Of a stretch of DNA of 64,000 nt, positions 8,539-52,907 are shown piece by piece. Each line of letters starts with the position of its first letter. Position 1 is the stretch's first letter. The notes beneath the pieces were generated by a model. It searched no databases. It was not told the DNA's origin and saw nothing but the letters and a program-made list of their open reading frames with translations. A program made the position numbers and the translations under genes. The DNA is from a virus (taxonomy: Duplodnaviria > Heunggongvirae > Uroviricota > Caudoviricetes): IMG/VR virus record IMGVR_UViG_3300045988_152699. One strand, given 5' to 3'.

Positions 8539-8739
8539 TTATCTGCTGCCCGGCATTCTCTGTTTAAGCACAACCATTTCCTGACGGCATAACACAGCAA
8601 TAGCTGTCCTGGCACCAATTTGCTTACCAACCAGGTATTGCTTTACCTTGCGGCGACTCACGCCATCAAGAAGCATCTTTAACGCTTCACGGGACAATTT
8701 GTTGTATTTGCGTGCCATTAATCTACTCCGCAGGACCAT
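8539..8739 (-). CDS. pdcA: PdcA-like small basic protein; likely start at internal Met (8718)
   Basis: 66-codon ORF immediately downstream of doc; symbol by position only. Confidence 0.45.
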
Positions 8740-9103
8740 ACAATCTACGTAACGTGTCGGCGACAGAAGATACAGATATCTCGCCAGTCGCAGCGCCTAC
8801 AGTAAGGTCTGCCAGTTCAGGTGAATCAAATACCTGCACCCCGTTACGGCGTAGAAATAACAGCGCACTGTTTAGCGCGGTACGCTTATTGGCATCATTG
8901 AATATATGCCCTCTCGCTGTAGCCACCAGGTAGGTGGCGGAGACTTCGAAAAGGTCGGTGATCTCTTCGTAGGCAACTCTGGCCTGAACTCTCCCGATAA
9001 TGGCCTCTGCCCTACCCGGATCAGACATTCCCGGCAGGCCGCCGTAGCGGCTTATATTCGCATCATGAAGCGCAATAAGTTCTTCCGGTGATATATGCCT
9101 CAT
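8723..9103 (-). CDS. doc: Doc toxin (death on curing), Fic-fold kinase
   Basis: 126 aa, [25 protein letters not shown]...; overlaps phd stop by 1 nt. Confidence 0.95.
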
Positions 9104-9324
9104 TATCGGTTAACCAGTTCCTTGTTGGTGGAGTCCAGGGTGTCAAACAGGGATGCAAATTCAGCATCCAGCGCCGCTTTTTTGTAGGCTTCGAAAGTAG
9201 CCTTGCTGACAATTACTGCTGGCTCACGGCCTCTGCGGGTGATTTCAACCTCTTCCCCGGCTTCAACATTGTTGAGCACTTCAGAAAGGTTGCCACGCGC
9301 GGTACGGAAGTTAATGGATCGCAT
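9103..9324 (-). CDS. phd: Phd antitoxin
   Basis: 73 aa from internal ATG ([17 protein letters not shown]...); the ORF track start at 9330 is 2 codons upstream. Confidence 0.93.
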
Positions 9325-48239: not shown

Positions 48240-48749
48240 ATGGGGCACAATAACACTAAGGGAAACCGTAAATTTATTAAGGGCCGCTATACTGCCAACG
48301 CGGCCAAAGGCGAACGACTGGTATCTTCTGAATTCCAGCTCACTTTTGCAGGCCATGAAGATATCAGCGTACTGGTTCGCACGTCGCAAATTCCTGAAAT
48401 GACCCGCGAGGATGTGGAGGACTATGGTCCGAATGGTGTGAAGTTCAACCAGCACGGACCAATTCGAAACTCTGGGGAAATCCAGGTCCAGTGCGTGGAG
48501 ACTATCGAAGGCGATATTCTTCAGTTCATCAAGGATCGCATTGCGGCGAAGGACTATGTTGATATCACGATGGCTGCGACCCCTGAATCCAAATCTTCCG
48601 GGGTTAACGCTGTGACAAAAGCTGCTACAACAATTGAAATGTTGGACTGCAAAATCTACAGTGATGCAATCGACTTTAGTACCGAAGATGTGACTGCCGC
48701 TGTGCGCCCGTCACTTCGTATCGTCTACAACTGGATTGAGTGGGATTAA
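48240..48749 (+). CDS. Hypothetical virion or baseplate protein
   Basis: 169-aa ORF, last gene before terminator. Confidence 0.45.
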   Translation: MGHNNTKGNRKFIKGRYTANAAKGERLVSSEFQLTFAGHEDISVLVRTSQIPEMTREDVEDYGPNGVKFNQHGPIRNSGEIQVQCVETIEGDILQFIKDRIAAKDYVDITMAATPESKSSGVNAVTKAATTIEMLDCKIYSDAIDFSTEDVTAAVRPSLRIVYNWIEWD

Positions 48750-48768
48750 GAGTCATCCCTTGTATTTT

Positions 48769-48793
48769 AAAGCTCCTTCGGGAGCTTTTTTAT
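48769..48793 (+). terminator. Rho-independent terminator
   Basis: AAAGCTCC-TTCG-GGAGCTTT followed by TTTTTTATTT. Confidence 0.8.
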
Positions 48794-48865
48794 TTGGAGA
48801 GGAAAGGGTGCATTGAGGATACCTGACACACGAAGAGTGGCGGAGATCTCTCCCCGCCAGGTCTC

Positions 48866-49021
48866 TTACCTTTCAGATTCGTAGGCTGTGAAGACAGTGA
48901 CCTCCGTCTGGCCGGTTCGGATTCGTACCTCGCAGAGGTCTTTCCTCGTTACCAGTGCCGTCACAATGACGGTTAAACAGATGACGATCAGAGCGATTAA
49001 CATCGCTTTTTGCTGCTTCAT
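48866..49021 (-). CDS. Hok/Gef-family type I toxin (51 aa)
   Basis: MKQQKAMLIALIVICLTVIVTALVTRKDLCEVRIRTGQTEVTVFTAYESER; SD AAGGAG; overlapped by a mok-like ORF (48873..49079). Confidence 0.75.
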   Translation of the reverse strand: MKQQKAMLIALIVICLTVIVTALVTRKDLCEVRIRTGQTEVTVFTAYESER

Positions 49022-49202
49022 AGCCTACTTCTCCTTGACCTTTTGGTCGGTAAGAGGCTAATCTACGTATGCTAAGCATAGATATGGCCTCAGATTAATG
49101 TTAAGCGTCTTGCAGGACGCGTGATGTTATCTGGGGCTTTCTTCTATCTGCTTTTCGGGTAATGCCTGAAGCAGATAGCCTCAAGCACCCGCAACGATTG
49201 TA

Positions 49203-49448
49203 TCAATGTCTGGCTTTTTTTCTATAGAAATCACCAGGAAGGGTGAATATCCACATCAGAAGAAATGTTGCAGCAAACATGATCCCTAATGGCCAGACCG
49301 CGCCAAAGAAAATCCATACTAAGATCTCCTCTGCTTGTTCTTTGCGGTCGATATCGACAAGCATTTTTCGGCTGATCATGTATACACAGAAGCCAATACA
49401 AACATATCCTGCAAAAGCGATCGCTAACTGTAAAAAATCAGATTGCAT
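49203..49448 (-). CDS. Hypothetical two-helix membrane protein
   Basis: 81 aa from MQSDFLQLAIAFAGYVCIGFCVYMI; SD GAGGT. Confidence 0.45.
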   Translation of the reverse strand: MQSDFLQLAIAFAGYVCIGFCVYMISRKMLVDIDRKEQAEEILVWIFFGAVWPLGIMFAATFLLMWIFTLPGDFYRKKARH

Positions 49449-49498
49449 CTCCGACCTCAAACTGAAAACGCCAGGTGACTCCAGATTAGAGCAATCTA

Positions 49499-50344
49499 TC
49501 ACCCTCTGAATCCTGCCGGTATACCCCATTGTTCGTTATCTTTATTTTTGGCTAAAACCGCATTAAGAGCTTCGTTTACCGTCATGCAATGCGGCAGATT
49601 ATCGAAGTTTGATACCCCGCCAATATCAGGAGAACGCTTGTTCTTCAGGTAAGCATATTTCCGCGCTGCCGCCTCTACTTTCTGCTTGAACTCATGTTTT
49701 TGAGCGCGTTTTTTGGATAACCGCAGATTGTCAGCCTTTGCTTTTGCCTCAGCGATCCATGAAGTCAATTTTTTGAGTCTGCTCGTTCCGGCACCGCCGG
49801 AAACTGATCTTTTTGTTTTTTTAACTTGTGACTTCTTATTCTTTATTGCCACGTCATCCTGACAGGGGGAGGGGGTATCATTTTGACATGGGGGTGTGGA
49901 TAAAAAATTAAATAAAGCCAATGTCTTAGCGAGAACAGCTTTAACCTTGGTTGCCGCTGAAGAGATCTTTAATTTGCTTTCAATCAGCGCATTTTTGGCT
50001 TGTTGTGCGAAGGCCAAAAAGGATGGTGTAAACCGGTACAGGTTAGCGCGACGTTCACGGTGATCGCCGATAACAATCTCTACAGATAGAATTCCTTTGT
50101 TTACAGCTTCACGGAATGCACGAACGACGGTTGATTGGCTATAACCAGTTTCTGCCGCGATCAGGCGGTGAGGCTTGTGAATGAAGTATTCACTGGTTGT
50201 TGCCGCGAGATTTGCACATTGCGACAGGATATGCCCGGCGCTACGGGATAGACCGGAGTGTGTTACAAAGCAGGCCAATTCATAGCCAGAAAAAGTAAAA
50301 TCGCTCATCGTTATACAGCTCAGGAAAGTGACTTTAGCCAGCAT
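49499..50344 (-). CDS. repL: RepL, lytic replication initiator; start uncertain
   Basis: 281-codon ORF immediately downstream of kilA. Confidence 0.65.
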   Translation of the reverse strand: MLAKVTFLSCITMSDFTFSGYELACFVTHSGLSRSAGHILSQCANLAATTSEYFIHKPHRLIAAETGYSQSTVVRAFREAVNKGILSVEIVIGDHRERRANLYRFTPSFLAFAQQAKNALIESKLKISSAATKVKAVLAKTLALFNFLSTPPCQNDTPSPCQDDVAIKNKKSQVKKTKRSVSGGAGTSRLKKLTSWIAEAKAKADNLRLSKKRAQKHEFKQKVEAAARKYAYLKNKRSPDIGGVSNFDNLPHCMTVNEALNAVLAKNKDNEQWGIPAGFRG

Positions 50345-52594: not shown

Positions 52595-52679
52595 AGTTAC
52601 GGCCTCACTAACAGGTTTAACAACCTGCTACCCGCTGTCAAACAGGTGGCAGGACGTGACAGGGTTGACAGACTGGCGT

Positions 52680-52790
52680 TAGTGAAACCAGCAGGCCGAA
52701 GCCTCCCCATCACGCCCCACCATAATTCGGGCGTAACGCGGTTTACGGACACAAAAATACCGCAATATCGGAAATCTGCGGTTGTCCGCA
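52680..52790 (-). ncRNA. Candidate c4-type antisense RNA region (boundaries approximate)
   Basis: UUCG-loop hairpin GGAGGCTTCGGCCTGC and repeated TTTGACAGC with complementary GTCTGTCAACCC between operator and icd. Confidence 0.3.
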
Positions 52791-52907
52791 CTAACATTCA
52801 GGCTGTCAAACCCGGTCGCAGAATTTGCTACGACGGTGGAACTATAAGCCTGAACGATTAAAAGGTCAATATGATGCGAAAAGATAGCATTCGCGACTTA
52901 AAAATAC

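What the first reader, a model, noticed from the sequence alone, without database searches (positions are those of the whole stretch)
48866..49200. Hok/mok-like type I toxin locus between the structural operon and repL
A 51-codon ORF has the Hok/Gef hallmarks: short polar N-terminus, one transmembrane helix, and the periplasmic motif RK.LCE.R...E.V.F.AYES. It has a strong SD (AAGGAG), an overlapping upstream mok-like frame (48873..49079), and a 10-bp leader hairpin (CTATCTGCTT/AAGCAGATAG). It lies at a convergent junction after the terminator at 48769. This would be a second addiction module beside phd/doc; I do not recall a hok-type module being described for P1.
Basis: partly seen in the sequence, partly recalled or inferred. 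Interest (0 to 1): 0.55.

Follow-up and report, generated by a model that had tools for sequence, protein, structure and literature searches.

The report
Intact hok/mok/sok toxin–antitoxin cassette
The flagged region is a complete, ordinary hok/sok-type RNA-controlled toxin–antitoxin cassette carried by a P1-like phage-plasmid in place of P1's pmgF-rlfB-rlfA genes; the same sequence is already annotated as hokD in hundreds of public plasmid records.

Summary
The 51-codon ORF at 48866-49021(-) is a Hok/Gef toxin (Pfam 78.7 bits, cut-off 22). Its leader matches the Rfam hok/sok model (112 bits, cut-off 59). The other family elements are also present:
- an overlapping mok frame;
- an antisense Sok gene (49071-49141, +) at the position of the experimentally validated sokW;
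- the 5' tac / 3' fbi end-pairing, supported by compensatory changes in 26 homologues;
- an extended -10 hok promoter.

The real unit is larger than flagged, about 48770-49224.

The novelty claim does not hold. The window is not reference P1. It is a P1-like phage-plasmid in which P1's pmgF-rlfB-rlfA (about 1.8 kb) is replaced by 693 bp carrying hok/sok and an 81-aa membrane ORF. The stretch is 100% identical to pD72-mcr1 over 48700-49550. PGAP labels it hokD in the P1-like plasmid records listed, one "Punavirus P1" record labels it MokW, and Venturini et al. 2019 mention it in passing.

The closest studied relative is hokW-sokW of Stx2 phages (92% aa, 87% nt), a proven type I TA that aids phage release.

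Most likely this is a Sok-repressed Hok killer that stabilises the plasmid prophage. A lysis-helper role is the main rival. Interest is low.

The parts
49197..49224 (-). hok promoter: TAGAAA, 16-nt spacer, TG-n-TACAAT (extended -10). The transcription start is inferred at about 49190.
   Evidence: Promoter scan, 9 of 12 matches with TG. The -10 box aligns with TAGAAT of 933W hokW and with TATAAT/TAGAAT in other homologues.
48806..49190 (-). Conserved core of the hok mRNA (385 nt), from the 5' tac element to the 3' fbi element.
   Evidence: Homology with lambdoid and chromosomal hok loci starts and stops at these ends. MFE -157.9 kcal/mol, z=-8.8. 86% of pair cells are paired across 26 homologues, against about 42% when partners are slid.
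49179..49190 (-). tac element (5' GGGUGCUUGAGG), which pairs with fbi in the full-length mRNA.
   Evidence: MFE fold. Pair 4/404 is U-A in 16, C-G in 9 and U-G in 1 of the homologues. After removal of the 3' end it refolds into a 5' hairpin.
49144..49178 (-). Conserved leader hairpin (CUAUCUGCUU ...
   Evidence: Helix 2: 92% paired, 3 pairs with changes on both sides.
49036..49065 (+). Sok promoter: TTGACC, 18-nt spacer, TAATCT. The -35 box overlaps the hok SD on the opposite strand.
   Evidence: It is position-homologous to the sokW promoter (TTGCCT ... TAACCT). Mutating the sokW promoter abolished antitoxin activity (PMC8621323). It was not called by the strict consensus scan, at 8 of 12 matches.
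49071..49141 (+). Sok antisense RNA gene (about 71 nt): a 5' single-stranded tail complementary to the mok start region, then a long hairpin and a U-rich tail.
   Evidence: Coordinates transferred from the annotated sokW of phage 933W. Hairpin fold -34.5 kcal/mol, z=-5.4. Lies inside the Rfam RF01794 match.
48873..49079 (-). mok reading frame (68 codons). It starts inside the Sok target and runs through the hok start.
   Evidence: ORF list. Its ATG aligns with the mok/mokW ATG in homologues.
48866..49021 (-). hok toxin gene (51 aa, one transmembrane helix, Cys15 and Cys30).
   Evidence: Pfam PF01848, 78.7 bits. 92% identical to HokW. 96% identical to K-12 HokD and 42% to R1 Hok, both reference sequences recalled from memory.
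48878..48884 (-). CUACGAA motif containing Tyr47 codon UAC (48881-48883). Candidate TadA A-to-I editing site (Tyr to Cys). Inference only.
   Evidence: TACGAA is invariant in all 26 aligned homologues. Editing of the equivalent Tyr codon in hokB/C/D/E mRNAs is summarised in bioRxiv 10.1101/2025.08.07.668861.
48839..48858 (-). 3' UTR hairpin GGCGGGGAGAGAUCUCCGCC, lying between the hok stop and fbi. It is the IS186/IS421 insertion hotspot in sister plasmids.
   Evidence: Helix 18, 88% paired. IS421 with a 10-bp duplication GGAGAGATCC sits here in CP057851. Venturini 2019 reports the same direct repeat for IS186B.
48806..48818 (-). fbi (fold-back inhibition) element CCUCAAUGCACCC, complementary to tac.
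48769..48788 (.). Stem-loop terminator of the bplB operon. It is the only terminator-like hairpin downstream of hok. On the hok strand it is followed by only UUU.
   Evidence: Terminator scan, + strand only. The hok-specific terminator found after fbi in lambdoid and chromosomal copies is absent here.
48792..49484 (.). Whole substituted cassette (693 bp) relative to reference P1. It replaces pmgF-rlfB-rlfA.
   Evidence: Pairwise alignment with NC_005856 and the P1 annotation.
49203..49448 (-). Neighbouring 81-aa membrane ORF of unknown function. It is part of the substituted cassette but not of the hok/sok unit.
   Evidence: PHROG 3772, unknown function, E=3e-54. No Pfam, NCBIfam or PADLOC hit. 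It is outside the region homologous to lambdoid hok loci.

Best explanation
This is an intact hok/mok/sok type I toxin-antitoxin cassette of the hokD/hokW (prophage) clade, carried by a P1-like phage-plasmid.

Proposed mechanism, inferred by homology and not tested here:
1. A weak constitutive extended -10 promoter makes a stable hok mRNA of roughly 385-420 nt. Its 5' tac end pairs with the 3' fbi element, so the molecule is closed to ribosomes and to Sok.
2. Slow 3' trimming removes fbi. The 5' end then refolds into its own hairpin and the mok start region opens.
3. While the element is present, the short-lived 71-nt Sok RNA is made from the opposite strand, with a promoter that overlaps the hok SD. 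Sok pairs with the mok start region, blocks mok translation and hence the coupled hok translation, and the duplex is cleaved.
4. When Sok is no longer replenished, the processed mRNA is translated. This happens on loss of the plasmid prophage or on shut-off of host transcription. The 51-aa Hok peptide then inserts in the inner membrane and kills the cell.

The most likely role is post-segregational killing. That would give this unit-copy plasmid prophage a second addiction module beside phd/doc.
For: Shown by tools:
- Toxin family: Pfam 78.7 bits against a cut-off of 22.
- Leader/antisense covariance model: 112 bits against 59, over the full model length.
- mok frame starts inside the Sok target.
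- Sok coordinates and promoter align with the annotated sokW.
- tac-fbi closes the MFE structure, z=-8.8.
- Covariation: 33 pairs with double-sided changes against 10-16 in slid controls, including U-A to C-G in tac-fbi.
- In silico 3' truncation makes the 5' end form its own hairpin.
- hok promoter with TG-extended -10.
- phd/doc is in the same window.
- The locus is conserved at 99-100% identity in the many P1-like plasmids listed and in isolated phages phi456 and Ro157c2YLVW.

From the literature:
- HokW (92% identical) is toxic and sokW neutralises it from its own promoter (PMC8621323).
- 42 of 45 diverse Hok homologues tested were toxic (bioRxiv 10.1101/2025.08.07.668861).
Against: - No expression, stability or killing data exist for this locus.
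- The strict promoter scan does not call the Sok promoter, at 8 of 12 matches.
- The cassette lacks the dedicated terminator that follows fbi in other copies. It relies on the reverse face of the bplB terminator, which has only three U residues.
- The locus belongs to the chromosomal/prophage clade. Three members of that clade (hokA, hokB, hokC loci) were reported unable to mediate post-segregational killing (cited).
- In the spread sample of related plasmids, about as many copies are split by IS421/IS186 or reduced to a sok-only remnant as are intact. That is compatible with weak selection.
- NCBIfam Hok models score below their curated cut-offs: 49.5 against 73 and 38.1 against 89.
Confidence: 0.8

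Rival explanations
1. Same molecular device, different job. As shown for hokW-sokW in the Stx2 prophage Sp5, Sok disappears on prophage induction and Hok is made early. Hok damages the inner membrane and helps lysis and phage release. Here the cassette lies directly downstream of the C1-repressed lytic replicon (kilA-repL-81-aa ORF), so lytic read-through could add to the effect.
For: The closest characterised relative (92% aa, 87% nt) has this role: deleting hokW-sokW halved phage release (PMC8621323). The locus has the same orientation as repL and is 0.3 kb downstream of it. Only a weak 5-bp hairpin lies between them. The C1 operator core is retained at 49485-49495. The locus is present in P1-like phages isolated as virions.
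Against: P1-type phages have their own holin/endolysin system. Nothing here shows induction-dependent loss of Sok. The effect in Sp5 was only two-fold. A transcript with an extended 5' leader would not have tac at its 5' end, and its behaviour is unknown.
Confidence: 0.25
2. A selfish or decaying passenger. The cassette arrived by recombination in a hotspot, is kept silent by Sok, and gives the phage-plasmid no measurable benefit, as reported for chromosomal hok loci.
For: The bplB-repL interval holds at least five alternative cassettes. Many sister plasmids carry IS421/IS186 between hok and fbi, or only a sok remnant. The native terminator is lost. Chromosomal hokA/B/C loci did not mediate post-segregational killing.
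Against: In this window every regulatory element and both reading frames are intact. About 220 plasmids (estimated from the spread sample) keep the complete unit at 97-100% identity.
Confidence: 0.2
3. Anti-phage exclusion cargo. Infection by a lytic phage shuts off host transcription, Sok decays, Hok kills the cell and aborts the infection, as reported for R1 hok/sok against T4.
For: R1 hok/sok on a high-copy plasmid reduced T4 plating (cited in PMC8621323). Variable regions of phage-plasmids often hold defence genes (general knowledge).
Against: No PADLOC model matches. The large Hok survey found no enrichment near defence systems. The reported R1 effect was weak and needed high copy number.
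Confidence: 0.08

Closest known systems
hokW / mokW / sokW of Stx2 phages 933W and Sp5 (VT2-Sakai)
   Same: 87% nucleotide identity over exactly 48806-49202. The toxin is 47/51 identical. Same leader, Sok hairpin, promoter positions, tac and fbi. Shown experimentally to be a type I TA.
   Different: - The Sok 5' recognition tail and its target differ at about 6 of 19 positions, so cross-repression is doubtful.
- A 1-nt indel puts mok out of frame with hok here, whereas it is in frame in 933W.
- The hosts differ: an integrated lambdoid prophage there, a plasmid prophage here.
- The downstream terminator differs.
hok/mok/sok (parB) of plasmid R1, the family prototype
   Same: Same architecture: the Rfam model is matched end to end, mok overlap, antisense RNA over the mok start, tac/fbi end-pairing, and a 3' hairpin. 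The expected role on a low-copy replicon is the same.
   Different: Only 42% amino-acid identity, against an R1 Hok sequence recalled from memory. No nucleotide similarity was detectable by blastn. This Sok hairpin has a 16-nt insertion relative to the model. Post-segregational killing is proven for R1 and untested here.
Chromosomal hokD (relF) of E. coli K-12, Qin prophage
   Same: The toxin is 96% identical (48/50, against a sequence recalled from memory). This is presumably why PGAP names the plasmid gene hokD.
   Different: The chromosomal copies with that toxin and no leader homology (L015, L030) lack tac, mok and sok upstream. The window copy has the full regulatory set.
phd/doc of P1 (type II addiction module)
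   Same: Same predicted outcome, killing of cells that lose the plasmid prophage. It is present in the same window at 8726-9324(-).
   Different: It uses a protein antitoxin and a Fic-family toxin that acts on translation. It is unrelated in sequence and mechanism.

Membership tests
[quoted passage not shown] | Small Hok/Gef membrane toxin (about 50 aa, one TM helix, conserved periplasmic tail) | tested here: met
   Pfam PF01848 at 78.7 bits against a cut-off of 22, covering 42 of 42 profile positions. PHROG 251 at E=4.9e-32. Caveat: NCBIfam Hok models score below their cut-offs.
[quoted passage not shown] | hok mRNA leader / Sok region with the conserved secondary structure | tested here: met
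   Rfam RF01794 at 112.3 bits against a gathering score of 59, model positions 1-157 of 157, at 49190..49016(-).
[quoted passage not shown] | mok reading frame that starts upstream of hok and overlaps the hok start (translational coupling) | tested here: met
   ORF 48873..49079(-). Its ATG aligns with mok/mokW in homologues. The coupling itself is not testable in silico.
[quoted passage not shown] | Antisense Sok RNA gene with its own promoter and terminator, complementary to the mok translation initiation region | tested here: inconclusive
   The position, hairpin (z=-5.4) and hexamers match the annotated and experimentally supported sokW. The consensus promoter and terminator scans do not call it. 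No transcript data.
[quoted passage not shown] | 5' tac / 3' fbi long-range end-pairing of the full-length mRNA | tested here: met
   12-bp end helix in the MFE fold, z=-8.8. 90.7% of cells are paired. U-A to C-G compensation occurs in 9 of 26 homologues. Further compensated variants are visible (GAAG/CUUC, GAGAC/GUCUC).
[quoted passage not shown] | 3' processing that activates the mRNA; unstable Sok versus stable hok mRNA; killing of plasmid-free cells | not testable with these tools
   The only support is an in-silico refolding of a 3'-truncated transcript.
Bacteriophage P1 reference gene set (rlfA/rlfB region) | pmgF-rlfB-rlfA between bplB and repL | tested here: not met
   Alignment with NC_005856: homology stops at 48791 and resumes at 49485. 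The window is a P1-like variant. Over 48700-49550 it is 100% identical to pD72-mcr1.

The most novel reading that the evidence does not exclude
In P1-like phage-plasmids the same hok/sok cassette may serve two purposes. In the plasmid state it would act as a post-segregational killer. After induction it would act as an early membrane-damaging lysis helper, as hokW-sokW does. Its placement immediately downstream of the C1-repressed kilA-repL lytic operon would couple the two: the operator core is retained at the junction and no strong terminator intervenes. The frequent IS186/IS421 insertions between hok and fbi, and the sok-only remnants, would then be traces of selection to tune or to neutralise this killer (anti-addiction).
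Probability: 0.12. Interest if true: 0.45.

Novelty: already known. Interest (0 to 1): 0.15.

Why it matters
It matters little as a discovery. The family is textbook, the exact sequence is annotated in public records, and a 92%-identical system has been studied experimentally.

It is useful as annotation. It shows that a large group of P1-like phage-plasmids, including mcr-1 and ESBL carriers, holds a second, RNA-based addiction module beside phd/doc. That could contribute to their persistence without antibiotic selection.

Current records annotate only the toxin ORF. They omit Sok, mok, tac/fbi and the promoter.

Tried and rejected
- **Sok promoter and terminator scans.** The consensus scan called neither signal. 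I relied instead on positional homology with sokW.
- **Reaching R1-type loci by nucleotide search.** blastn 'distant' on plasmids did not reach R1-type hok/sok. The comparison with R1 therefore rests on the Rfam model and on a protein sequence recalled from memory.
- **NCBIfam.** The Hok subfamily and HokA equivalog both score below their cut-offs. The name 'HokD' cannot be confirmed by HMM here.
- **PADLOC.** No defence-system model matches Hok, Mok or the 81-aa ORF.
- **The 81/108-aa ORF.** Pfam and NCBIfam give nothing, and the only hit is PHROG 3772 of unknown function. I took the 81-aa form because GGAG precedes its ATG and PGAP uses the same start.
- **Covariation on the inner half of tac-fbi.** MAFFT shifts the Photorhabdus group by one column because it lacks the bulged base. 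Those 'unpaired' cells are an alignment artefact, which I judged by eye.
- **Literature.** Searches for hok together with P1-like, IncY or phage-plasmid found no functional study. The only mention found is the table entry 'antibacterial toxin' in Venturini 2019.
- **Weak Rfam hits.** CRISPR-DR46, sbrA and ceN48 lie far below their gathering scores. They sit on the terminator or on the Sok hairpin, so I rejected them as chance.

Full report

Yes. The minus strand of 48866-49021 encodes a 51-aa peptide. It matches Pfam HOK_GEF over the full profile at 78.7 bits against a cut-off of 22, E=2.4e-22. It also matches PHROG 251 'MokW-like host killing'.

- The AAGGAG Shine-Dalgarno is at 49032-49037(-).
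- The overlapping 68-codon frame is at 48873..49079(-).
- The 10-bp hairpin CTATCTGCTT/AAGCAGATAG and the convergent terminator at 48769-48788 are all present.
- Rfam's hok/sok model RF01794 matches 49190..49016(-) from its first to its last position at 112.3 bits against a gathering score of 59.

Chance is excluded.

**2. What replicon is this?**

The window is P1-like:
- phd/doc lie at 8726-9324(-).
- C4 RNA and three tRNAs are present.
- There are 11 copies of the C1 operator core, against 0.01 expected.

Reference P1 (NC_005856) has pmgF, rlfB and rlfA between bplB and repL. The alignment shows that homology to P1 ends at 48791, just after the bplB terminator. It resumes at 49485, at the conserved core ATTGCTCTAAT of the C1 operator Orlf, directly after the repL stop codon. 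About 1.8 kb of P1 is replaced by 693 bp, made up of the hok/sok unit and an 81-aa membrane ORF of unknown function at 49203-49448(-).

Over 48700-49550 the window is 100% identical to pD72-mcr1 and two other plasmids. It is 99% or more identical to 228 plasmid records, although that band also contains records matching only part of the query. PGAP labels the ORF 'hokD: type I toxin-antitoxin system toxin HokD' in the records listed. Phage records hold it too:
- MH422554 'Punavirus P1', where it is annotated MokW;
- phi456;
- vB_EcoM-Ro157c2YLVW.

Over 25 kb the best plasmid match is only 98.7%, so the window is its own mosaic.

Two papers touch on this interval. Venturini et al. 2019 describe the substitution in pSvP1 as '2 orfs including antibacterial toxin', with an IS186B nearby (PMC6906374). 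The JL22 paper lists rlfA-rlfB-pmgF as one of eight variable regions of P1-like phage-plasmids (PMC9603915).

**3. Anatomy**

Homology with hok loci of lambdoid prophages (933W, Sp5, Rac and others; 86-90% identity) covers exactly 48806-49202. That span is the transcript core, plus the -10 box.

*hok promoter and transcript.* The promoter is TAGAAA-16-TACAAT with an upstream TG, at 49224..49197. Its -10 aligns with TAGAAT/TATAAT of relatives. The inferred 5' end GGGUGCUUGAGG (49190-49179) is complementary to CCUCAAUGCACCC (48818-48806), which lies 48 nt past the hok stop codon.

*Full-length fold.* In the minimum-free-energy fold of the full transcript these two elements close the molecule (-157.9 kcal/mol; shuffles -110 ± 5.4; z=-8.8).

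*Covariation.* I fetched 47 hok loci from one-genome-per-species contigs. I cut 25 transcripts with both end motifs present, aligned them with the window, and projected the window's fold onto the alignment. Results:
- 86.4% of pair cells are standard pairs, against 40-43% when partners are slid by 1-3 columns.
- 33 pairs have changes on both sides, against 10-16 in the slid controls.
- No shuffle out of 500 reaches the observed covariation score.
- In the end helix, pair 4/404 is U-A in 16 sequences, C-G in 9 and U-G in 1.

Other compensated end variants are visible directly: GAAG/CUUC in Citrobacter and GAGAC/GUCUC in Photorhabdus. Because the structure was derived from one member, the 'cells paired' value is inflated. 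The double-sided changes are the meaningful part.

*3' truncation.* Removing the last 31 nt in silico makes nt 1-34 form their own hairpin and frees nt 118-134 near the mok start. That is the kind of rearrangement described for R1 (established knowledge: Franch, Gultyaev and Gerdes 1997).

**4. The antitoxin**

Phage 933W carries an annotated 71-nt sokW. Transferred through the alignment, it corresponds to 49071-49141(+).

- The RNA has a 5' tail GCUAAGCAUAGAUAU, complementary to the mok AUG region. A long hairpin and CUUUCUUCU follow (fold -34.5 kcal/mol, z=-5.4).
- Upstream lie TTGACC (49036-49041) and TAATCT (49060-49065), 18 nt apart. They occupy the positions of sokW's TTGCCT and TAACCT.
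- The -35 box overlaps the hok SD on the other strand.
- The generic scan does not call this promoter, at 8 of 12 matches. However, mutating the homologous sokW promoter abolished antitoxin activity (PMC8621323).
- The Sok tail differs from SokW at about 6 of 19 positions. That would insulate this pair from other hok/sok loci in the same cell (inference).

**5. Function**

The molecular mechanism is inferred from family membership:
- a stable, self-closed hok mRNA;
- activation by 3' trimming;
- Sok blocking mok and therefore hok;
- Hok depolarising the inner membrane.

Experimental support comes only from relatives. HokW is 92% identical, is toxic, localises to the inner membrane and is neutralised by sokW. 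In a separate survey, 42 of 45 diverse Hok homologues tested were toxic.

For the biological role I rank the options as follows.
1. Post-segregational killing of cells that lose the unit-copy plasmid prophage.
2. An induction-coupled lysis helper. This is plausible because hokW-sokW doubles Sp5 release, and because the cassette lies 0.3 kb downstream of, and in the same orientation as, the C1-repressed kilA-repL operon with no strong terminator between them.
3. A largely neutral passenger.
4. Anti-phage exclusion.

Several facts caution against the first option:
- The locus belongs to the chromosomal/prophage clade. It is 96% identical to HokD and 42% to R1 Hok. The hokA/B/C loci of that clade did not give post-segregational killing.
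- The dedicated terminator that follows fbi in other copies is missing.
- In the evenly spaced sample of 60 out of 633 related plasmid records, about 21 hold the intact unit. About 18 have an IS4-family element between hok and fbi. About 14 keep only leader/sok fragments.

**6. Extra details**

- The IS (IS421/IS186 type) sits in the loop of the 3' hairpin GGCGGGGAGAGAUC(U/C)CCGCC, with a 10-bp duplication GGAGAGATCC. This is the same repeat Venturini et al. report. It separates fbi from hok by about 1.35 kb.
- Other P1-like elements (CP069570, CP024832, RCS47) keep the hok leader and Sok-coding stretch up to about 49057. In them the hok ORF and the Sok -35 box have been exchanged for a 198-aa ORF cassette.
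- The codon for Tyr47 lies in CUACGAA (48878-48884), and TACGAA is invariant in all 26 homologues. The equivalent Tyr codon of hokB/C/D/E mRNAs is reported to be A-to-I edited to Cys by TadA. This is a lead, not a test.

**7. Verdict**

Novelty is absent: this is a known family, a known clade, and a sequence already annotated in public records. The finding is well placed as annotation and of low interest as discovery.

Noticed in passing
window 48792-49484; loci L003, L005, L006, L055, L056: The bplB-repL interval is a cassette-exchange hotspot in P1-like elements. P1 and P7 hold pmgF-rlfB-rlfA. RCS47 holds a 198-aa ORF plus ISEc46. SJ46 holds a 210-aa ORF (labelled Lom outer membrane protein in the RefSeq copy) and an extra RepL-like ORF. 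CP024832 holds ParA, DUF3892 and the 198-aa ORF. This window holds hok/sok and an 81-aa ORF. The left junction is always just after the bplB terminator.
   Followed up: partly
window 49485-49495 (-): The C1 operator core ATTGCTCTAAT (P1 Orlf/Op55) is retained directly after the repL stop. The P1/non-P1 breakpoint falls immediately after this 11-nt core. The same junction is seen in four other non-P1 cassette types, but not in SJ46. The core occurs 11 times in the window, against 0.01 expected.
   Followed up: partly
window 48839-48858; L054 6380-7760: In roughly 30% of related plasmids an IS421/IS186-type element is inserted in the hok 3' hairpin, with a 10-bp duplication GGAGAGATCC. It separates the fbi element and the terminator from hok. 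This echoes the IS insertions next to chromosomal hok genes of E. coli K-12 (from memory: Pedersen and Gerdes 1999).
   Followed up: partly
L055 2476-2680, L056 2501-2590, L005 (RCS47) about 2120-2330: Sok-only remnants. Some P1-like plasmids keep the hok leader and Sok-coding stretch up to window position about 49057, but have lost the hok ORF and the Sok -35 box to a 198-aa ORF cassette. These could be anti-addiction relics or simple debris.
   Followed up: partly
window 49203-49448 (-): An 81-aa predicted membrane protein (PHROG 3772, unknown function) lies immediately downstream of repL. It is absent from reference P1 and is conserved in both hok-bearing and hok-less cassette variants. It has a GGAG SD and is possibly part of the lytic repL operon.
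   Followed up: partly
window 48878-48884 (-): A CUACGAA motif surrounds the Tyr47 codon of hok. Its TACGAA core is invariant in all 26 homologues. It matches the sequence context reported for TadA A-to-I editing (Tyr to Cys) in hokB/C/D/E mRNAs.
   Followed up: no
window 49025-49027 and 49040 (-): A 1-nt indel relative to 933W (GGTCAAGG against GG-CAAGG) switches mok from in frame with hok (933W mokW) to out of frame (this window, as in R1). Both states occur across the family alignment, so the Mok peptide sequence itself is probably unimportant.
   Followed up: partly
window 8726-9324 (-), 30689-32346 (-), 52642-52847 (-): Other P1 landmarks in the window: phd/doc (98% identical to P1 sequences recalled from memory), three tRNA genes, and the C4 antisense RNA with its a1/b1 targets (immI region).
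   Followed up: no
L016 (Acinetobacter idrijaensis contig, 275 bp), L028 (Xanthomonas pisi contig, 431 bp): Very short contigs in non-enterobacterial genome assemblies encode a Hok 100% identical to the window's. Given their size, these are most likely contaminating E. coli or P1-like reads rather than true horizontal transfer.
   Followed up: no
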